Below are positions 148 to 7,281 of a stretch of 64,000 nt of DNA, in pieces (position 1 is the first letter of the stretch; the number at the start of each line of letters is the position of its first letter). Source of the DNA: Prochlorococcus sp. AG-388-A04 (GTDB lineage: Bacteria > Cyanobacteriota > Cyanobacteriia > PCC-6307 > Cyanobiaceae); contig QCGL01000009.1 of NCBI GenBank assembly GCA_003279935.1, forward strand, positions 3,061-67,060, in the 5' to 3' direction. The position numbers and the translations under genes are program-made. The notes beneath the pieces were generated by a model. It worked only from the letters and a program-made list of their open reading frames with translations. It was not told the origin of the DNA and searched no databases.

Positions 148-690
148 TTAGAGAGACTCAATAAATTCTTGAAACCTTTCAAATAAGACATTGTCTTTAA
201 TTCTTCTAAGAATAAATAAAGTTCCTTTATCACCCCTGCAAATTCTAAGATTTTTGCTTAAAAAAGTAATTTCTAACCATCCTTTTTGTTCTTTTTGAAT
301 CTTAGTTAAAGCGTTTATTTTCCTTATTCCAATATAAGGTCCAATTATTCCAGCATGAGTAAAACTAACACCAATTTTCTTTTCATTTAAAGAACTCAAT
401 TTTGCTACTATTCCTGTTCCAACAATTGAATTAATCCCTCTGGGCTTGAGTAAATTCAAACCATTTAGATTTAATGGATCAAGAATTTGAAGGTTATCAA
501 CTAGAGGAGAGTAATTTAGAAATGGAGCTTTTGAACTACTCCATCTAAGCTCCCATATTCCTTCTAACTTATTAATATCATTGCTAAGGGTAAATTTTGA
601 TTCGTTCTCTAGTTCTTCAGCCATATTTTTAATCTTTTTTGTTTTAGGACTTGAAAGGATTAAGCCCATTAATTGTTGTTCTAAATTCAT
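148..690 (-). CDS. PAP/fibrillin family protein
   Basis: 180 aa; LEGIWELRWSS and GWLEITFLSKNLRICRGDKGTLFIL match the fibrillin lipocalin-like motifs. Confidence 0.85.
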   Translation of the reverse strand: MNLEQQLMGLILSSPKTKKIKNMAEELENESKFTLSNDINKLEGIWELRWSSSKAPFLNYSPLVDNLQILDPLNLNGLNLLKPRGINSIVGTGIVAKLSSLNEKKIGVSFTHAGIIGPYIGIRKINALTKIQKEQKGWLEITFLSKNLRICRGDKGTLFILRRIKDNVLFERFQEFIESL

Positions 691-768
691 TTAAAAAGAT
701 TTACAAAATAACTTAAGCAAAAATACTTACGTTGATGTGCTATATTCTACTGAAATTGTTTTGATTTC

Positions 769-1053
769 ATGACAAAGAGTTACTGGCTTAAGAAAATATC
801 TATTCCAAATGCTGATTTGTTTCTCGAATATATAAGGACAGTCTTGCCATGGATAAGATCTGTAGGTGGGGTTGTAGTAAAAAAAGATATTACCCAAGAT
901 TCCAACTCACACAAATGGGATGGAGGCCAACTAGGGATGGTAATTGAATTTGAATCTAAGATAGCTGCAAAAAGAGCTTTTTATTCAGATGTATTTCAAA
1001 ACTATTTGAAATCGAGAGATTTAATGGAACTAGTGACAATAAGCACTCTTTAG
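769..1053 (+). CDS. DUF1330-like small ferredoxin-fold protein
   Basis: 94 aa; Y...V.P.I...GG and VIEFES..AA..FYS..YQ pattern. Confidence 0.7.
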   Translation: MTKSYWLKKISIPNADLFLEYIRTVLPWIRSVGGVVVKKDITQDSNSHKWDGGQLGMVIEFESKIAAKRAFYSDVFQNYLKSRDLMELVTISTL

Positions 1054-1220
1054 TATTAAAAAAGTTAAATCTCTCAAAATAATATCTGCCGACTAAAAAC
1101 ATAAAAATCAATTTTCGAGACTAAGTATTTATTACTAGTAATCATTTTATGTAATGGTTATAACTTCATTACTTATGAAATATTTAGCAAAATCTAAGAT
1201 AATTATAAAAATTAAATTAA

Positions 1221-1400
1221 ATGAATTACTCTACGGAACAAGAAGACTATTTAATGACAACCCCATATACAAAAAAAATTCAAAAAAAATTTAAGGAAGT
1301 TAAAAATTATCTTGAGAAAAATGGATTTAACTCATCTTCCCAAGGACTAATGCAGGATATTATTAGTTCTCAAGAATATATTTCGAAAAATGATTTATGA
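1221..1400 (+). CDS. small hypothetical protein (59 aa, below track cutoff)
   Basis: Hand translation MNYSTEQEDYLMTTPYTKKIQKKFKEVKNYLEKNGFNSSSQGLMQDIISSQEYISKNDL; ATG 1221, TGA 1398-1400. Confidence 0.45.
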   Translation: MNYSTEQEDYLMTTPYTKKIQKKFKEVKNYLEKNGFNSSSQGLMQDIISSQEYISKNDL

Positions 1401-1413
1401 AAAAATATTTTTT

Positions 1414-1584
1414 TCATAGCGTTTTAAAATAATAAATCCCACCTATTAAGAACGGTAATAATATCCCTAAGAATAATAGAAAAGATTTTTTAGATTCTCC
1501 CTGTGTTATTGGATTAATTTCTGGTTCAATTGCAAATCCATTTTGTCTTCCACCACTTTCAGTTGTATATCCTTTTTTATTCAT
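1414..1584 (-). CDS. Ssl1498/Psb34-family PSII assembly-like protein (56 aa)
   Basis: Hand translation MNKKGYTTESGGRQNGFAIEPEINPITQGESKKSFLLFLGILLPFLIGGIYYFKTL; YTTE.GGR.N.FAIEP family motif plus one C-terminal TM helix. Confidence 0.75.
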   Translation of the reverse strand: MNKKGYTTESGGRQNGFAIEPEINPITQGESKKSFLLFLGILLPFLIGGIYYFKTL

Positions 1585-1671
1585 AAAAAAAAAATTTCAT
1601 ATGATTATCGCATGTATTTTTTTTTATTTAAATAAATTTTACATTTAGAAAATTTTTTAATTTTCTATAAA

Positions 1672-1806
1672 TTATAAGTTAATTTCAATTTTGGATTTTA
1701 ATTTAGCAGCTTTTTTAAGTAAACCAACAATTTCTTTTCTACCATTGGCTTGTTCTGCTCTATCAATTAAGTCACAATATTTTTTTGTAATTTCTCTATG
1801 GTTCAT
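1672..1806 (-). CDS. small hypothetical protein (44 aa)
   Basis: Hand translation MNHREITKKYCDLIDRAEQANGRKEIVGLLKKAAKLKSKIEINL; helical, resembles conserved Prochlorococcus small proteins (from recall). Confidence 0.6.
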   Translation of the reverse strand: MNHREITKKYCDLIDRAEQANGRKEIVGLLKKAAKLKSKIEINL

Positions 1807-1898
1807 TAATCTAAATTTATTATTTACATTATAAAAATAGAATTAATATTTTTTTGTATAAAAGATATCACAATCGTTTTTAAATTCTCTTAAATTGT

Positions 1899-2201
1899 CT
1901 ACCTAAACCATCCTTTCTTTTTCGGTTCTTCTACAACTTTTACTGGTTCTACTTTATTACCAAATAATCCCTTTTTCTTTGGTTTCATATCCTCAGTTAT
2001 CAGTTCTTTTTTTCTACCAAATAATCCTTGCTTCTTAGGTCTATCCTTTAAATCTTTTTTCTGATTTACTTTTTTAACAGGAGATTTAGATTTATTCTGT
2101 ATTGATTTTTTACCATCTGATAAAAGCTGATAGACAAAATATCCAAAAACACCAAAAAATCCTATTGCTTGGACTAAGGCGGTACCGATATTATCAAACA
2201 T
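1899..2201 (-). CDS. hypothetical membrane protein with Lys-rich repeated tail
   Basis: N-terminal TM (ALVQAIGFFGVFGYFVYQLL), then repeats KKQGLFG / KKKGLFG / KKKGWF. Confidence 0.7.
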   Translation of the reverse strand: MFDNIGTALVQAIGFFGVFGYFVYQLLSDGKKSIQNKSKSPVKKVNQKKDLKDRPKKQGLFGRKKELITEDMKPKKKGLFGNKVEPVKVVEEPKKKGWFR

Positions 2202-2325
2202 TGGCGATTCTAGTTTTTTAATTAAGTAATCAATTAATTATGGAAAAATATTTTTATAAATGCGGAATAAAAGAATGCAGATTTATGAATTAAAAATTAA
2301 GATATGAAATTTTTTTTAAATAAAA

Positions 2326-2505
2326 CTATTTATAGTAATTAATTAGATCGATTATTAATATCGTAAGGAGAGAAATTCCCAAGATATATGGAGCAAAAGG
2401 ATATTTATTCAAGAATTGATTTAAATTACTTTTTGAATCCTTTTTTGTTACTTTCTTTTCTCTAGGCGGCAATCCTAATTCTTCTCTTCTTTTAGCTTCT
2501 CCCAT
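2326..2505 (-). CDS. DUF2839-family protein (59 aa)
   Basis: Hand translation begins MGEAKRREELGLPPR (family signature) and ends in a TM helix; stop TAG 2326-2328. Confidence 0.75.
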   Translation of the reverse strand: MGEAKRREELGLPPREKKVTKKDSKSNLNQFLNKYPFAPYILGISLLTILIIDLINYYK

Positions 2506-2634
2506 TTTTTCAATTACCTACTTTAAAACAAATATAATCCATATACGTTCAAAGACAAAACTTAGATACTTCCAAAATCTGATTACAGATATGATTAAAA
2601 ATTTAGTTAATATGAAAATATTAATTAAATCAAA

Positions 2635-2742
2635 ATGATAGAAATTGTTTGGTCAGTAAATATTATGGTTGCAATTTTAATTGGTGGAGTTGGCTGGGTC
2701 TTATATTATATTTTTACTTACGACCAGAAATTTACATCTTAA
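2635..2742 (+). CDS. small single-TM protein (35 aa)
   Basis: Hand translation MIEIVWSVNIMVAILIGGVGWVLYYIFTYDQKFTS; stop is 7 nt before the next ATG, so likely one operon. Confidence 0.55.
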   Translation: MIEIVWSVNIMVAILIGGVGWVLYYIFTYDQKFTS

Positions 2743-2749
2743 TATCAAA

Positions 2750-2932
2750 ATGGCTGAAAAAGATTTAGTAAATTTCCTAAAAAAAATAGAACAATTAAAC
2801 AAAATTTCAGAATTAATTAAAAATAATCCTATAAAAAAGAAAGAGTTGTCGGATTGTAAAAATCATGAAGAAGTAATTTGCTTAACATCCAAATGGGGTT
2901 TTGAAATTGGCAAAAGATGGGGAGAATATTAA
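2750..2932 (+). CDS. Nif11-like domain protein (60 aa)
   Basis: Start moved from the track GTG/TTG to ATG 2750; MAEKDLVNFLKKI...CKNHEEVICLTSKWGFEI resembles the Nif11 helical pattern. Confidence 0.6.
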   Translation: MAEKDLVNFLKKIEQLNKISELIKNNPIKKKELSDCKNHEEVICLTSKWGFEIGKRWGEY

Positions 2933-3020
2933 ACAAATTAATATCCAACCAAGAAAAAAACATTTAAGTAACACCAATACTCATAAAATAAATTAATATA
3001 AAGTTTGTAAAAATCTTATT

Positions 3021-3773
3021 ATGACTGATATTGAGGAGATAAAAAAGAAGATATATCAAATAGCAGCTATTACTGACAGGGGGCAAAGACTGAACAAATT
3101 AATTGCACCTATGTATCAAGAAAAATCGAAAGAGATGGAAAAACTTATAAATAGTCTTGAGAATTTTAATATGGAAGTTTCTGAAGAAAAATTATCTGGA
3201 GAGTGGGAATTAATTTATTCAACAGTTGAATTATTTAGAAGTTCACCGTTCTTTTTAGCTATAGAAAAAGCGTTAAATGATGAATTTAAAAGTAATCTTT
3301 TTTTTAAACTACATCAATTACAAGTTGGATCATTTGGTCTTTCTACCATTGGAAGAATTGCTCAAAATATTGATTTTGATAAAAAAGAATTTTTATCAAC
3401 ATTTGATACCACAATATTTGGGCTTACAACAATTCCAATTCTTGGTTGGTTCAAGCTTCTTCCAACTTTTGGAGGAAAAGTAATAACGCTTGCTGATGAT
3501 TTAAATTTAGAGGACAGGGTACTTAAAATGAATTTGCAGAAAACCAAAGTCTCTAAAGTAGATGGACTTAATAAAATCCCAATATTTAGCAAAATTCTTA
3601 TGGATAGATGGTATCCAGTAAAAGAAGTTTGGGAGAAACTACCTTGGAATAAGGAAATCCCTTCATGTGAAGTTACAGTAATCTATTTAGATGATGAGAT
3701 AAGAATAATGAAAGACCTCTATGGGGAAATTTTTATTTACATAAAACCAACAATATCTTTATTTAATTTTTAA
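3021..3773 (+). CDS. PAP/fibrillin family protein
   Basis: 250 aa; N-terminal AAITDRGQ, LSGEWELIYST and C-terminal YLDDEIRIMK motifs. Confidence 0.85.
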   Translation: MTDIEEIKKKIYQIAAITDRGQRLNKLIAPMYQEKSKEMEKLINSLENFNMEVSEEKLSGEWELIYSTVELFRSSPFFLAIEKALNDEFKSNLFFKLHQLQVGSFGLSTIGRIAQNIDFDKKEFLSTFDTTIFGLTTIPILGWFKLLPTFGGKVITLADDLNLEDRVLKMNLQKTKVSKVDGLNKIPIFSKILMDRWYPVKEVWEKLPWNKEIPSCEVTVIYLDDEIRIMKDLYGEIFIYIKPTISLFNF

Positions 3774-3788
3774 TTGAAAATTAAAAAT

Positions 3789-4697
3789 TTAAAAAGTAGT
3801 AATTTGAGGTCGGAAAGGAGCGGAACCAAAAAATTCAATATCAGTATTATTTCCTCCAATTAAATATCCTCCTTGTTTAACAACTAGTTTAACTTCGATT
3901 CCACTTGTAGTATCAGAAATATTGATTTGACTAGTAGGCTCGAAAATTGCTAATAGTTTAGAGACGTTTGCTTGAGAAGTTGCTTTTGCTGAAGTTGTAT
4001 TACTACAAGAATTTGCAACATGATTACAATCATTTAAGAGAATAGCTGACATTTTACCGTTATCCATTTGAAAAGCTGAACTCATTTCAGCACCATTGGC
4101 TACCGTCCAAGACCCTTCCCCCAGTCCTATATTGTCAACTTCTTCTCCATGCTCTTGGGCCGCTGAAAGTGTTTTATCAGCAGCGCCGAATGGACCAAGA
4201 TCGTCGTTGCCTTGTTTTGAGTAATAGGTAGTTCCATCAGATAATGTATAACTACCCTTTAAATTAAAGGCTGAAGAAATCAAGATATAGGCATAATTAT
4301 AATTACCGTTCGCTGGCCTATCTGGAGCCGATGATAATGCTGCTATTTTGGAGTCAGAACTACCTGGTGCAAGATCAACTTTTGTTCCATTAATATCAGA
4401 AATCATTGTTGCAATACAAGTAGATTTATCCCATATTTTTGAACCAGAAGAACCTGTTATCGGGTTTGAAGAAGAAGAACATAGGCCCATTTCATAAATA
4501 GTAATTTCATACTTTTCTGGAGTACCTAAACATTCGAACTCATCTGAAGGTTCGGCTAATGCAAGCAATTGCGAGTAGGTAGGAGGAGTGGTGGGACATT
4601 TCGGCATATCAAATTCTTCGGCTTTTGTTGATTGAATGGTAAAAACATAATTCAACGATAAGAATCCAGTAAGCATTAATTTTTTGAAATTTTTCAT
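3789..4697 (-). CDS. secreted beta-rich hypothetical protein A (paralog of 4711-5649)
   Basis: 302 aa; Sec-type signal ending STKA; 6 Cys; Ser/Thr/Gly/Asn-rich; shares motif blocks with the upstream gene. Confidence 0.8.
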   Translation of the reverse strand: MKNFKKLMLTGFLSLNYVFTIQSTKAEEFDMPKCPTTPPTYSQLLALAEPSDEFECLGTPEKYEITIYEMGLCSSSSNPITGSSGSKIWDKSTCIATMISDINGTKVDLAPGSSDSKIAALSSAPDRPANGNYNYAYILISSAFNLKGSYTLSDGTTYYSKQGNDDLGPFGAADKTLSAAQEHGEEVDNIGLGEGSWTVANGAEMSSAFQMDNGKMSAILLNDCNHVANSCSNTTSAKATSQANVSKLLAIFEPTSQINISDTTSGIEVKLVVKQGGYLIGGNNTDIEFFGSAPFRPQITTF

Positions 4698-4710
4698 TAT
4701 TAATTACTAA

Positions 4711-5649
4711 TTAAAAGGTATTAAAAGTAGGAATAAAGTCTCCTGAATATGCCCAATTTGGTTGATAAGTTGAGTCTCCAGGTCCTCCTCCTTCAACATA
4801 AAGTCCTGAACCTGATACGACAAATTTTATTTCTAAACCATTTGTCTCTTCATTTATTTTAAGACTATTATTTGATTTGAAGACACCAACAACCCTTGCA
4901 ATTGAGCTGCAGTTGGTAGCCGTTTCTAATGAACTATTAGTTACAACAGCTCTAACTACACCTTGATTAGTCCCGCTAGATACTGTCCTTTGGTAATCGA
5001 ATCTGCAAGGACTATTAACGTTAAATCCGTATTCATCAAATTCATGTGTAAAAGATTGTGCGGCAGATAATGATTTATCAAACAGACCTGGTGAATTTGT
5101 GGACCCAGGATTATCAGATGGCTTCGTATAAAAAGTCCCGCCATTGGTCTCATCAGTAGTAGTATAAGAGCCTTTAATCTTAATATTATTAGCCATAACC
5201 ATAACGAAATGAGTATATGTTCCGTTTGGTGGTCTCGTAGATGCGCTTGGTAAAGCTAAAGATTGGTTTAAGGAGGCAGCAAGATCTACGGTAACACCAT
5301 TATCTGATTCCATTGACCAGGTACAGTTAGTATCTGAAAAATTAATATCTGCATCTGTAGAGTGAAAAGGATCATCTGTACACATCCCAATTTTATATAA
5401 AGTTATTTCGTATCCATCTGGGGTAGCATAACATGCAGAATGTGGCGGTGTTGCATTAGATGAATATGTGAATGGTTTACTATGTGAAGTCCCTATTGCT
5501 GCATCACTCATATTTTGTTGATTAGATTGACAACTTACAGCGGTATTACTTTCTGACCAATCTGTTGCTTTAGATGGCTCTGTATTTAGCAATATACCTG
5601 AAATACTTAAAGGTAGTAATACTATTTTTGTTAATTGTGAGTAGTTCAT
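4711..5649 (-). CDS. secreted beta-rich hypothetical protein B (paralog of 3789-4697)
   Basis: 312 aa; signal ending PSKA; 6 Cys; CYATPDGYEITLYKIGMC aligns with CLGTPEKYEITIYEMGLC of protein A. Confidence 0.8.
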   Translation of the reverse strand: MNYSQLTKIVLLPLSISGILLNTEPSKATDWSESNTAVSCQSNQQNMSDAAIGTSHSKPFTYSSNATPPHSACYATPDGYEITLYKIGMCTDDPFHSTDADINFSDTNCTWSMESDNGVTVDLAASLNQSLALPSASTRPPNGTYTHFVMVMANNIKIKGSYTTTDETNGGTFYTKPSDNPGSTNSPGLFDKSLSAAQSFTHEFDEYGFNVNSPCRFDYQRTVSSGTNQGVVRAVVTNSSLETATNCSSIARVVGVFKSNNSLKINEETNGLEIKFVVSGSGLYVEGGGPGDSTYQPNWAYSGDFIPTFNTF

Positions 5650-5657
5650 AAAAAATT

Positions 5658-6803
5658 TTAAACTCCTTTAGCTCTGTTTTGGAAAGTACCCGCGGATCTC
5701 TCTAGGAGAACATCATATTTGCGTTTAACTGGTTGTATCATTTGTGTAATCATATTTTTCTTGTAGTTTTTCTTAGAAAAAATTACTGGGCTTCCTGTCA
5801 AATTCATCCTCAAACCGAAAAAGGTCTCATCTGTTCCAGGAAGTTTTGAATTAAGGTTGGTCGAAGCTGCTGATATCTCATTAGAAACCCAAGCTTCAAG
5901 ACCAATATGTGGACTAGCTTGCCAACTAACTGCACCTTCTAATCCAGAATTATCCTGTGTATATTTATAGTCCCAATTAAAACCTCTTACAAAAAAAGCA
6001 AGTTCAGGATTATTAGGAAGTCTGTAGCCAAGTTCTACATCCCATCCATCAACTACTCTTTCTTTATATGATGTACCATTTACAGTTACATCTTTTTCAT
6101 CAGTAATTGCTATGTACCAGTTGTTTCTTAATTCAAAATCTTTCCAAAGATATTCTCCTCCAAGACCAAGTCTGCTATGAGCATCACTATATTCAGTCAT
6201 TCTGTAGTCCCAGAAAGCATTAGCTCCAAGCATTGATACATCATTAGGACGATGTCTAATACCAAGACCTAAATTTGTAGTTGAACCATCTGCATTTGTG
6301 GCTGTAGCAAATCTTGCTTGAGAAAAAGCAAGGGTCTTAACATCACCCTCATCATCTTGAGCTAGTTCTCCTAGTTTCATCAAACTATTAATAGAGAAAC
6401 TCGTATCTGATTCTGTTCCTCCAGAAATATTAACTGTTGTTTGAGCAAAGAAAGGAATACTTTTAATTGAGCTATTAGCTGTGGAATTTATGAAATCGAA
6501 TCCAGCATCAACTAATAACCTTTTACCATCATTGATCATTAAATTAGAATATTCACTACCTTCTGCACCCTCATTCATTAAAGGAACAAACTTAGTTGAA
6601 TAAGTTGCTCCATTGATTATGTATTTATCTAATTTGTTTTTGGGAATATAAATATCTGAATTATTATTTTTGGTCAGTTTATCTAGATTGTTTATGTAGT
6701 TAGACTCACTATCAAAATTTGGGGTTGAATAAGAAGAAGGGATAAATATTCCTAAAAAGGCTGTTGATAAAAAAGCTAAGAATAATTTTGTTCTAATCAA
6801 CAT
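5658..6803 (-). CDS. inverse autotransporter (intimin/invasin-type) beta-domain protein with no passenger
   Basis: Signal peptide; NLGLGIR, GANAFWDY, HSRLGLGGEY, NNWY, GWDVE and PVKRKYDVLLE match intimin/invasin barrel and linker motifs; ends 13 aa after the linker. ATG 6803 preferred over TTG 6806. Confidence 0.8.
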   Translation of the reverse strand: MLIRTKLFLAFLSTAFLGIFIPSSYSTPNFDSESNYINNLDKLTKNNNSDIYIPKNKLDKYIINGATYSTKFVPLMNEGAEGSEYSNLMINDGKRLLVDAGFDFINSTANSSIKSIPFFAQTTVNISGGTESDTSFSINSLMKLGELAQDDEGDVKTLAFSQARFATATNADGSTTNLGLGIRHRPNDVSMLGANAFWDYRMTEYSDAHSRLGLGGEYLWKDFELRNNWYIAITDEKDVTVNGTSYKERVVDGWDVELGYRLPNNPELAFFVRGFNWDYKYTQDNSGLEGAVSWQASPHIGLEAWVSNEISAASTNLNSKLPGTDETFFGLRMNLTGSPVIFSKKNYKKNMITQMIQPVKRKYDVLLERSAGTFQNRAKGV

Positions 6804-6939
6804 CAAAAATTTTTAAAGTTATTACATTTATAAAAGATTTTTTTTGATTTAATGCTGTTTATAACAAAACTCATAGAAATCTAGTTAAATTAAGTAGTTC
6901 TACCTAGAAGTAATGTCGCGAGATCTTAATAAATAAGTT

Positions 6940-7281
6940 ATGTTCATAGTGAACATTTTAAAAATTATGCTTAAAAATAAAGAAAAAAATTCTGTAGTAA
7001 GAGGAATCTTTTTAATTGGTGGTTGGGGTTTAGGTTTAGATAGATTTTACGAAGGAGATAAAAAAGGTGGAGTATTATCGATTATTGGATGGAGTATTAC
7101 ATTTTTTACTTTCCTCTACCTTAAATGTTCTGGATATGAATATGTTGATGGTGTAAAAAATTATTCAGATTACTCCCCAAATCCTTTAATTGTTTTACCT
7201 TTGATAGCTGGAGCTTATGGAGGGTTTCTCATAATTAAAAAGGCTTTCAGGTTAGCGAAACAATTTGAAAACGCTGAGTAA
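6940..7281 (+). CDS. TM2-domain membrane protein
   Basis: GGWGLGLDRFYEGDKKGGVLSIIGW is a TM2-type GLDRFY.G motif; start may be ATG 6967. Confidence 0.65.
   Translation: MFIVNILKIMLKNKEKNSVVRGIFLIGGWGLGLDRFYEGDKKGGVLSIIGWSITFFTFLYLKCSGYEYVDGVKNYSDYSPNPLIVLPLIAGAYGGFLIIKKAFRLAKQFENAE

What the first reader, a model, noticed from the sequence alone, without database searches (positions are those of the whole stretch)
3789..6803. Candidate split inverse-autotransporter secretion system: passenger-less intimin-type barrel plus two secreted paralogs
Seen: three co-oriented genes separated by only 8 and 13 nt. The first has a signal peptide and intimin/invasin beta-domain motifs but stops 13 aa after the linker, so it has no passenger. 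The next two are signal-peptide-bearing, beta-rich, 6-Cys paralogs. Known: classical type Ve proteins fuse barrel and Ig-like passenger. Salmonella ZirT/ZirS(U) is, as I recall it, the precedent for an intimin-like barrel exporting separately encoded partners. Inference: a two-partner type Ve-like export, adhesin or surface-fibre system in a streamlined picocyanobacterium, possibly affecting aggregation or phage and grazer recognition. I know of no description of it in this lineage. It sits in the variable part of the window.
Basis: partly seen in the sequence, partly recalled or inferred. Interest (0 to 1): 0.85.

Follow-up and report, generated by a model that had tools for sequence, protein, structure and literature searches.

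The report
Passenger-less intimin barrel with hypervariable partner genes
A Prochlorococcus genome carries a conserved outer-membrane barrel of the intimin type that has lost its adhesin part and is always followed by one or two fast-evolving genes of an undescribed protein family. The same gene pair occurs in other abundant ocean bacteria, so it looks like a widespread, unstudied cell-surface display or export system.

Summary
Three co-oriented minus-strand genes lie 8 and 13 nt apart.

- **Barrel:** a 381/382-aa signal-peptide protein that is only an inverse-autotransporter barrel (Pfam IAT_beta, E=6e-64). It ends 18 aa after the model.
- **Partners:** two signal-peptide, all-beta, 6-Cys paralogs (30% identity, E=1e-28).

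The barrel is not a truncation. The 120 best of 1,313 relatives are all 380-410 aa. Ten distant barrels all end 15-18 aa after the model.

The partners belong to an unannotated family:
- It has 843 clusters at 50% identity.
- It has no Pfam, NCBIfam or PDB match.
- A confident AlphaFold model has no structural neighbour.

In 90 of 95 partner-ascertained loci an IAT_beta barrel lies directly upstream. Four of the other five are cut at a contig edge. The loci come from Prochlorococcus, Synechococcus and marine Alpha- and Gammaproteobacteria.

At the same chromosomal site in other high-light Prochlorococcus genomes:
- flanking proteins are 83-96% identical to the window;
- barrels are 81-91% identical;
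- partners are only 28-38% identical.

Nucleotide homology breaks exactly at the partner genes.

Best reading: a two-partner, type-Ve-like system in which a conserved barrel exports or anchors a hypervariable surface protein. Export itself is untested. ZirT/ZirS is the nearest precedent, but membership fails on defining features.

The parts
5658..6806 (-). Barrel gene. It encodes a passenger-less inverse-autotransporter (intimin/invasin-type) outer-membrane beta-barrel protein. The likely start is the ATG at 6803 (381 aa); a TTG at 6806 gives 382 aa.
   Evidence: ORF. Pfam IAT_beta E=6.4e-64, with no other domain. Partial NCBIfam hits to the SinH, IatC, Ilp and Inv barrels only. Intimin 4E1S at E=2e-07. 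1,313 relatives, of which the best 120 are 380-410 aa with IAT_beta only.
5715..6551 (-). IAT_beta domain (residues 86-364): the 12-strand barrel plus the linker motif QPVKRKYDV.
   Evidence: The match runs from profile position 15 to 279 of 279. The linker motif QPV+R..(D/E)VLLER is conserved in all cyanobacterial barrels, and VRRNNAI / VKRENRI in the proteobacterial ones.
5661..5714 (-). Conserved 18-aa C-terminal tail of the barrel protein (LLERSAGTFQNRAKGV). No passenger follows it.
   Evidence: Tail length is constant: 18 aa in the window and in L094, and 15 aa in nine other distant barrels. The motif F-x-N-R-A-x-G is kept across Prochlorococcus clades, and F..G.GG(V/T/F) in proteobacteria.
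4711..5649 (-). Partner A: a 312-aa protein with a signal peptide and an all-beta fold, from an unannotated family. It is the extra paralog present only in some genomes.
   Evidence: ORF. No Pfam or NCBIfam family. AlphaFold pLDDT 80.6, pTM 0.81, about 16 strands. No PDB or BFVD neighbour. A-type copies occur in L001 and L012 only.
3789..4697 (-). Partner B: a 302-aa paralog of A, and the type closest to the single partners of other genomes.
   Evidence: A versus B E=1e-28. Partner HMM E=8.7e-114. In each of L005, L009 and L010 the single partner matches B better than A.
3764..5655 (.). Hypervariable replaceable cassette, made up of the two partner genes. Nucleotide homology to three genomes with the same flanks is lost across this stretch.
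   Evidence: blastn of the window against L097, L099 and L100 gives homology over 690-3763 (86%) and 5656/5665-10875 (90-93%). Between those blocks there is nothing except one 131-nt 69% match in L099. Partner identity is 28-38%, against 81-91% for the barrel and 83-96% for flanking proteins.
5650..5657 (-). 8-nt spacer between the barrel stop codon and the start of partner A.
   Evidence: A metatranscriptome contig spans 5597-5767. No terminator-like site on this strand.
4698..4710 (-). 13-nt spacer between the stop codon of A and the start of B.
   Evidence: A metatranscriptome contig spans 4541-4717.
3759..3795 (.). AT-rich inverted repeat between the convergent ends of B and the PAP_fibrillin gene. 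It may be a weak bidirectional terminator, and it marks the lower boundary of the cassette.
   Evidence: Inverted repeat I3: 17-nt arms, 88% complementary, 3 nt apart. Its function is inferred only.

Best explanation
This is a two-gene (here three-gene) outer-membrane module related to type Ve secretion.

- **Barrel.** The first gene makes a Sec-exported 12-strand intimin-type barrel. It keeps its pore-filling linker and a fixed 15-18-aa tail, but it has no passenger.
- **Partners.** The downstream gene or genes make Sec-exported, disulfide-containing, all-beta proteins of a new family. I propose that the barrel takes them to the cell surface, or holds them there. They would play the role that the fused passenger plays in intimin.
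- **Selection.** The barrel is the conserved chassis. The partner is a hypervariable, exchangeable cassette, most likely under diversifying or frequency-dependent selection from phages or grazers.

Shown here: the domain content, the constant tail, the strict gene linkage across phyla, the hypervariability confined to the partner, and transcription in the sea.

Inferred: the surface location of the partner, its dependence on the barrel, and the selective agent.
For: 1. The barrel is an IAT_beta barrel with nothing after the linker.
2. The passenger-less form is the conserved state.
   - The best 120 relatives are 380-410 aa.
   - The 42 intact stop-to-stop barrel ORFs are 304-456 aa.
   - Ten distant barrels all end 15-18 aa after the Pfam model.
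   - The tail motif is conserved.
3. Linkage is close to absolute.
   - 90 of 95 partner-ascertained loci have the barrel immediately upstream on the same strand.
   - Four of the other five are cut less than 35 nt upstream of the partner.
   - Three barrel-ascertained loci each have a partner 40-150 nt downstream.
4. The loci span Prochlorococcus high-light and low-light clades, Synechococcus RCC307, a Pseudomonadales MAG, Alphaproteobacteria and a 30% GC marine genome.
5. The partners have signal peptides and 4-6 conserved Cys.
6. The partner domain always sits at the C-terminus. In one case it follows a long GGxINNxG repeat region of the kind seen in surface adhesins.
7. At one orthologous site, OsmC is 94-96% identical, PAP_fibrillin 83-87%, the barrel 81-91% and the partner 28-38%. 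Homology breaks exactly at the partner genes.
8. Barrel and partner similarities are incongruent. Window versus L097: barrel 91%, partner 30%. Window versus L005: barrel 65%, partner 52%.
9. Marine metatranscriptome contigs cover the barrel at high depth and span both gene junctions.
10. ZirS secretion depends on the intimin-like ZirT, so trans-export by this barrel family has experimental precedent (PMC2270342).
Against: - No experiment or complex model links the partner to the barrel physically.
- The barrel's own linker should plug the pore. This is the same unresolved problem as for ZirT (PMC4943183).
- A folded, disulfide-bonded 30-kDa beta protein is an awkward cargo for a 12-strand barrel.
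- The model of A looks like a complete fold, so a donated strand from the barrel tail is not obviously needed.
- The barrel model failed (pLDDT 39.5), so the topology of the tail rests on homology alone.
- Fast evolution of the partner could partly reflect relaxed constraint.
- One locus (L007) shows no barrel fragment within 284 nt upstream.
- Most metagenome loci come from one alphaproteobacterial lineage, so they are not independent observations.
Confidence: 0.55

Rival explanations
1. The two proteins work together, but the partner stays in the periplasm. It would bind the 60-aa N-terminal periplasmic part of the barrel or its periplasmic face. The pair would form an envelope tether, a plug regulator or a ligand-binding and uptake unit. 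The barrel would not export the partner.
For: - The barrel's pore should be filled by its own linker (PMC4943183).
- The partner is a folded protein with disulfides.
- The weak best structural hits are lipocalin- and TbpB-like ligand binders.
- Classical inverse autotransporters carry a periplasmic N-terminal domain.
Against: - A periplasmic protein has no obvious reason to be the one hypervariable gene between conserved neighbours.
- It also has no obvious reason to be swapped between clades.
- The Foldseek hits are not significant: E above 0.08 and TM at most 0.12.
- No LysM or other periplasmic domain was found in the barrel.
Confidence: 0.2
2. The partner is a secreted polymorphic toxin or bacteriocin-like effector, and the barrel is its dedicated exporter. 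This would be analogous to CdiB/CdiA, with the variability driven by competition between strains.
For: A conserved transporter next to a highly polymorphic cargo is the pattern seen in contact-dependent inhibition systems. The cassette is exchanged between lineages.
Against: - There is no immunity-like ORF after the partner. The next gene is a convergent, conserved PAP_fibrillin gene 15 nt away, in the window and in L097, L099 and L100.
- The variation runs along the whole protein, not just a C-terminal tip.
- No toxin or enzyme domain was found in Pfam, NCBIfam or PADLOC.
- The family occurs in free-living, dilute-ocean plankton such as Prochlorococcus.
Confidence: 0.08
3. The barrel is a stand-alone outer-membrane protein, for example a structural protein, a porin-like protein or a phage receptor. 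The downstream gene is merely co-transcribed, with no direct physical or export relationship.
For: No interaction has been shown. 'invasin_beta-only' proteins are already known as an architecture (PMC4943183).
Against: The gene order and spacing of 2-150 nt are kept across cyanobacteria and Alpha- and Gammaproteobacteria, with barrel identity down to 28%. That degree of conservation is hard to explain without functional coupling. The conserved fixed-length tail also suggests a specific function.
Confidence: 0.1
4. The barrel gene is a decayed inverse autotransporter whose passenger was lost by truncation, and A and B are unrelated island genes.
For: None beyond the first impression that the passenger is missing.
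Against: - Hundreds of orthologs have the same length.
- The tail is a constant 15-18 aa in distant lineages.
- The tail motif is conserved.
- The gene is transcribed.
- The linkage with the partner is strict.
Confidence: 0.02

Closest known systems
[quoted passage not shown]
   Same: - An intimin/invasin-family barrel gene is followed on the same strand by one or two genes for Sec-dependent proteins that lack a barrel.
- The downstream proteins can be paralogs of each other.
- ZirS secretion was shown to need ZirT (PMC2270342; reviewed in PMC4943183).
   Different: - ZirT and its relatives keep C-terminal Ig-like domains. ZirS and ZirU are Ig-like and similar in sequence to those domains (PMC4943183).
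- Here the barrel protein ends 18 aa after the barrel model.
- The partner has a fold with no Ig or other structural match and no sequence family.
- The partner is hypervariable at a fixed locus.
- The hosts are free-living marine plankton.
Classical type Ve inverse autotransporters (intimin, invasin)
   Same: Signal peptide, the IAT_beta 12-strand barrel and the conserved linker motif.
   Different: There is no passenger in the same polypeptide and no LysM domain. The surface-exposed function, if there is one, is encoded in separate genes.
Type Vb two-partner secretion (FhaC/FHA, CdiB/CdiA)
   Same: The logic is the same: a dedicated outer-membrane transporter gene sits next to its Sec-dependent cargo gene. 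In CDI systems the cargo is polymorphic while the transporter is conserved.
   Different: - The transporter family differs (Omp85 with POTRA domains there, IAT_beta here).
- The cargo has no TPS domain.
- There is no immunity gene.
'invasin_beta-only' / intimin-invasin barrel proteins noted in cyanobacteria (Heinz et al. 2016; Simm et al. 2015)
   Same: These are probably the same barrel proteins. They were reported in five Prochlorales and nine Synechococcus strains (PMC4365693), and as a domain architecture (PMC4943183).
   Different: Those surveys listed the barrel only. The papers found here do not describe the linked partner family, its hypervariability or its spread into marine proteobacteria.

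Membership tests
Inverse autotransporter (type Ve, intimin/invasin family) | N-terminal Sec signal peptide | tested here: met
   Read directly from the sequence: MLIRTK, then the hydrophobic stretch LFLAFLSTAFLGIFIP, then SSYS. No dedicated predictor was run.
Inverse autotransporter (type Ve, intimin/invasin family) | IAT_beta 12-strand outer-membrane barrel | tested here: met
   PF11924 at E=6.4e-64, 216.7 bits against a cut-off of 22.3, covering profile positions 15-279 of 279. Intimin 4E1S at E=2e-07. The AlphaFold model of the barrel was too poor to add anything.
Inverse autotransporter (type Ve, intimin/invasin family) | Linker that runs back through the barrel pore | tested here: inconclusive
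   The Pfam model is matched to its last position, and the motif QPVKRKYDVLLER is conserved. The topology was not modelled.
Inverse autotransporter (type Ve, intimin/invasin family) | C-terminal passenger (Ig-like, lectin or other domains) in the same polypeptide | tested here: not met
   Only 18 residues follow the barrel model. The same holds for the 120 best relatives and for ten distant barrels.
ZirT/ZirS-type inverse-autotransporter two-partner systems | Barrel gene followed by co-oriented gene(s) for signal-peptide proteins without a barrel | tested here: met
   Gaps of 8 and 13 nt in the window. The arrangement is conserved in 90 of 95 loci.
ZirT/ZirS-type inverse-autotransporter two-partner systems | Barrel protein retains Ig-superfamily domains that resemble the substrates | tested here: not met
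   No domain follows the barrel. The three window proteins share no Pfam or NCBIfam family.
ZirT/ZirS-type inverse-autotransporter two-partner systems | Substrates have an Ig-like fold | tested here: not met
   The confident model of A (pTM 0.81) has no PDB match better than E=0.088, and TM is at most 0.12. No Big or other Ig-like Pfam family was found.
ZirT/ZirS-type inverse-autotransporter two-partner systems | Secretion of the partner depends on the barrel | not testable with these tools
   This needs genetics or heterologous expression.
Type Vb two-partner secretion | Omp85/POTRA transporter and a TPS domain on the cargo | tested here: not met
   No such Pfam or NCBIfam hits on any of the three proteins.

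The most novel reading that the evidence does not exclude
The IAT_beta-only barrel and its partner form a distinct, widespread outer-membrane display system of marine bacterioplankton: Prochlorococcus, Synechococcus, marine Alphaproteobacteria and Pseudomonadales, and possibly SAR11-like cells. The barrel presents a separately encoded protein of a new fold on the cell surface. The hypervariable alleles of that protein are a main determinant of which phages or grazers recognise each cell. That would make the partner locus a single-gene counterpart of the large cell-surface genomic islands.
Probability: 0.3. Interest if true: 0.88.

Novelty: new variant of a known kind. Interest (0 to 1): 0.72.

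Why it matters
Three reasons.

1. **Secretion mechanism.** How an intimin-type barrel could handle a protein encoded in trans is an open problem, first raised by ZirT. Here nature supplies a minimal version: a barrel, a linker, a 15-18-aa tail and a separate partner. The barrel's own Ig domains are absent, so they cannot confuse the picture. That makes the question directly testable.

2. **A new protein family.** The partner family has at least 843 clusters at 50% identity. It has no annotation, no known fold and no literature, yet it sits in some of the most abundant organisms on Earth.

3. **Ecology.** In Prochlorococcus the partner is a sharply bounded hypervariable cassette between conserved genes. 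This is the signature expected of a target of phage or grazer selection. It gives a compact, trackable marker for strain-level surface diversity in ocean metagenomes.

Tried and rejected
**Searches on the partner that found nothing**
- Pfam, NCBIfam, PADLOC and PHROGs gave no family.
- DUF6723 gave only sub-threshold hits (best E=0.016, 15.4 bits against a cut-off of 27; 5 of 39 members). I rejected them as chance.
- A PDB sequence-profile search with the partner alignment found nothing below E=0.58.
- Foldseek of the model of A found nothing significant in PDB or BFVD. The weak top hits were lipocalin and TbpB and were not used.

**Ideas about the partner that were dropped**
- That A/B are themselves membrane beta-barrels, because of the C-terminal Phe. 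No outer-membrane-protein structure matched the confident model. The C-terminal motif F-x-P-x-F-x-T-F does not have the alternating pattern of a canonical beta-signal. Distant members do not end in an aromatic residue.
- Toxin plus immunity. There is no ORF between the partner and the convergent PAP_fibrillin gene.

**Barrel structure**
- The AlphaFold model of the barrel, built from 18 close homologs, gave pLDDT 39.5 and is unusable. Deeper barrel sequences from the loci could not be submitted.
- The C-terminal 110 aa of the barrel against PDB gave no intimin or invasin alignment.

**Collection scans**
- The second used a narrow pattern and gave only 6 loci.
- Viral contigs hold no partner or barrel relatives.

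**Local sequence signals**
- The promoter and terminator scan found fewer promoter-like sites than shuffles, and no minus-strand terminator.
- The repeat scan found no convincing repeats at the cassette boundaries. The one feature is an AT-rich palindrome at 3759-3795.

**Literature**
- Searches on inverse autotransporter with Prochlorococcus, cyanobacteria or SAR11, on PF11924, and on invasin with exoproteome found no description of the partner.
Full report
**1. The observation**

The window is low-GC (31%). Its closest relatives are high-light Prochlorococcus single-cell genomes. On the minus strand, one search lists three ORFs:
- 5658-6806 (382 aa from TTG; 381 aa from the ATG at 6803, which matches the homologs);
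- 4711-5649 (312 aa);
- 3789-4697 (302 aa).

The gaps are 8 and 13 nt.

The first protein matches Pfam IAT_beta (PF11924) at E=6.4e-64 over residues 86-364, up to the last position of the model. Only 18 residues follow. NCBIfam gives only partial hits to the barrel regions of SinH, IatC, Ilp and Inv. phmmer finds the intimin barrel 4E1S.

The other two proteins are paralogs: 30% identity, E=1e-28. All three begin with a signal-peptide-like segment, and A and B each have six cysteines. Both points are read from the sequences.

**2. The barrel is not a truncated adhesin**

- Of 1,313 relatives, the best 120 are all 380-410 aa and carry IAT_beta alone.
- Of the 46 stop-to-stop barrel ORFs that do not start at a locus edge, 42 are 304-456 aa. 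Four shorter ones look broken.
- Ten distant barrels were re-checked with Pfam. All end 15 aa (nine cases) or 18 aa (one case) after the end of the model.
- The tail sequence is conserved within lineages. In picocyanobacteria it is VLLERS.G.FQNRA.G. In proteobacteria it is QTKF..G.GG(V/T) or KKFSASAGGF.

A short tail of fixed length is therefore a feature of this subfamily.

**3. The partners**

A and B have no Pfam, NCBIfam, PADLOC or PHROG family.
- A word-seeded search with an alignment found 124 clusters at 90% identity.
- A full HMM scan of 1.84 billion representatives found 843 clusters at E of 0.001 or better.
- Nearly all members are 245-355 aa, with the domain running to the C-terminus.
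- Where a source names them, the name is 'hypothetical protein'.

Invariant or nearly invariant positions include four cysteines (C40, C73, C90, C109), two more at about 86% (C215, C247), the TP..YEI.IYEMGLC hairpin and the C-terminal GSAPF.P.F strand.

An AlphaFold model of A built from 39 sequences is confident (pLDDT 80.6, pTM 0.81) and all-beta, with about 16 strands. Foldseek finds nothing significant in PDB (best E=0.088, TM at most 0.12) or in BFVD. A profile search of PDB sequences finds nothing either. The fold is therefore not Ig-like and not a membrane barrel.

One member (P0251) carries the domain at the C-terminus of a longer protein full of GGxINNxG repeats. The upstream ORF on that contig has the same repeats.

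**4. Linkage**

I collected 95 loci through the partner:
- lookups of partner-family proteins from the 90%-identity and 50%-representative searches and their clusters;
- a species-representative genome scan;
- a metagenome scan seeded with non-cyanobacterial partners.

A local HMM analysis shows a barrel, or a barrel fragment at the contig edge, immediately upstream on the same strand in 90 of them. In four others, less than 35 nt of upstream DNA is available. Only L007 has 284 nt upstream without a barrel fragment.

I then went the other way. Three loci ascertained through the barrel (L097, L099, L100) each have one partner gene 40-150 nt downstream, with partner HMM E-values around 1e-70.

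The organisms include:
- high-light and low-light Prochlorococcus;
- Synechococcus RCC307 and, for the partner gene, Synechococcus sp. LTW-R;
- a Pseudomonadales MAG, on a contig that also carries a giant flagellar hook gene;
- Alphaproteobacteria, with neighbours named Puniceispirillum or Paracoccaceae and a partner named 'Alphaproteobacteria bacterium';
- a 30% GC locus whose neighbours cluster with a 1.29-Mb contig. This would fit a SAR11-like genome, but that is only an inference.

Most loci have one partner. The window, L012 and the SS120-like L001-L003 have two.

**5. The partner is a hypervariable cassette at a conserved site**

L097, L099 and L100 share the window's neighbourhood: DUF1499, OsmC, small ORFs, barrel, partner, PAP_fibrillin, Nif11, DUF1330, PAP_fibrillin.

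| Protein | Identity to the window |
|---|---|
| OsmC | 94-96% |
| PAP_fibrillin | 83-87% |
| Barrel | 81-91% |
| Partner | 28-38% |

blastn homology runs over 690-3763 and 5656/5665-10875. It vanishes over 3764-5655, which is exactly the two partner genes.

L012 is collinear and has both partners. There A is 57% identical and B 71%, against 83% for the barrel and mostly 83-95% for real flanking genes.

Similarities are also incongruent. The window's B is 52% identical to the partner of L005, whose barrel is only 65% identical. It is 30% identical to the partner of L097, whose barrel is 91% identical. This points to cassette exchange or very old alleles kept by selection.

No immunity-like ORF follows the partner. 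No copies were found on viral contigs.

**6. Expression**

Four marine metatranscriptomes hold contigs matching the barrel at high depth, up to about 1,100 in one run. Matches to A and B are sparse, as expected for such divergent genes at 90% likeness or better. One contig spans the A/B junction (4541-4717) and another spans the barrel/A junction (5597-5767). No terminator-like site lies between the genes on the minus strand. Co-transcription is likely but not proven, because these are assembled contigs from mixed populations.

**7. Mechanism**

The best-supported reading is a type-Ve-related two-partner system.
- The barrel is inserted in the outer membrane.
- The partner crosses the inner membrane by Sec, forms disulfides, and is then exported or held at the surface with the help of the barrel.
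- The conserved parts of the partner and the conserved tail of the barrel would provide the contact. The variable parts would face outward.

The sharp hypervariability is the main argument for surface exposure. The experimental precedent is ZirS, whose secretion needs the intimin-like ZirT (PMC2270342).

The main difficulty is the one Heinz et al. raise for ZirT: the barrel's own linker should block the pore (PMC4943183). Their proposal is a reversible plug, as in FhaC. That could apply here, with the linker and tail acting as the plug. A donated-strand anchoring of the partner by the tail is another possibility. Neither could be tested, because no multimer prediction was available and the barrel model failed. 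I put this reading at 0.55.

The rivals are:
- a periplasmic barrel-partner complex (0.2);
- mere co-transcription (0.1);
- a toxin exporter (0.08);
- a decayed gene (0.02, effectively refuted).

**8. Comparison with what is known**

The barrel domain belongs to the IAT_beta family. The protein fails the defining feature of an inverse autotransporter, a passenger in cis.

The module shares gene organisation with ZirT/S/U, SinH/SinI and Yfr4/Rat. It fails two defining features of that group: Ig-like domains on the barrel protein, and Ig-like substrates related to them (PMC4943183). It shares only the logic of type Vb systems.

Intimin/invasin barrels had been noted in Prochlorales and marine Synechococcus (PMC4365693), and 'invasin_beta-only' had been noted as an architecture (PMC4943183). 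None of the nine literature searches found a description of the partner family, of its linkage to the barrel, or of its hypervariability.

**9. Verdict**

I rate it a new variant of a known kind: a passenger-less type Ve barrel with a trans-encoded partner of new fold. The central functional claim is still untested. Interest 0.72.

**Limits**
- The loci were mostly ascertained through the partner.
- Many metagenome loci come from one alphaproteobacterial lineage.
- Taxonomic labels are partial.
- No experimental or complex-modelling evidence exists.

Noticed in passing
window 2744-2932 (+); L001 4389-4568; L097 6976-7158; L099 7127-7309; L100 6998-7180: A small Nif11-domain protein (Pfam E=3.5e-08) lies near the module. 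In the high-light genomes it is separated from the partner by the PAP_fibrillin gene. In the SS120-like L001 it sits directly upstream of the barrel on the same strand, ending about 100 nt before the barrel start. The recurrence in two different arrangements may or may not be meaningful.
   Followed up: partly
window 148-690 (-) and 3021-3773 (+): Two PAP_fibrillin-family genes lie on the same side of the module, beyond the partner cassette, with small ORFs between them. The nearer one converges on partner B with a 15-nt gap and forms the conserved lower boundary of the hypervariable cassette.
   Followed up: partly
window 6940-7281 (+): A 113-aa membrane protein with no Pfam family is transcribed divergently from the barrel. 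It is 95% identical in L012. In metatranscriptome contigs it shows very high depth, up to about 1,400 in run X3.
   Followed up: no
L016 2620-3456 and L017 2545-3381: In one Prochlorococcus lineage a prepilin peptidase gene (Peptidase_A24) follows the partner gene on the same strand, about 115 nt downstream.
   Followed up: no
L069 356-2832 and 14 similar loci (e.g. L031, L049, L066): In the alphaproteobacterial group a LuxR/NarL-type response regulator is transcribed divergently just upstream of the barrel in 15 loci. A membrane histidine kinase accompanies it in 11 of them. This suggests regulated expression. The barrel in L069 has a lipoprotein-type signal peptide (LSLTGC).
   Followed up: partly
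L096 (P0251) 283-1779 and upstream ORF 2-229: The partner domain is fused to the C-terminus of a longer protein made of GGxINNxG repeats (beta-helix-like). The upstream ORF has the same repeats. The contig is too short to show whether a barrel gene is nearby.
   Followed up: partly
L004 1-4574: A very large flagellar hook protein gene (FlgE domains, at least 1,599 aa) lies about 400 nt upstream of the barrel-partner pair, with a small ORF between, in a Pseudomonadales-like metagenome contig.
   Followed up: no
window 4000-6400: GC content is 34-40% across the partner genes and most of the barrel, against 21-30% in the flanks. This may reflect the Gly/Ala/Ser/Thr-rich proteins rather than foreign origin.
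   Followed up: no
L001 58-3961 and 8042-12573: In the SS120-like low-light genome the module sits among envelope-glycan genes: EamA, a glycosyltransferase, PMT_2, UDP-galactopyranose mutase and methyltransferases. A chlorophyll-binding PSII-family (pcb-like) gene is also there. This is a different context from the high-light site.
   Followed up: no
L007 1-284: This is the only informative locus in which a partner gene has no barrel fragment in the 284 nt upstream (Prochlorococcus AG-363-B11, a 2.5-kb contig). It may be a longer spacer, a rearrangement or a solitary partner.
   Followed up: partly
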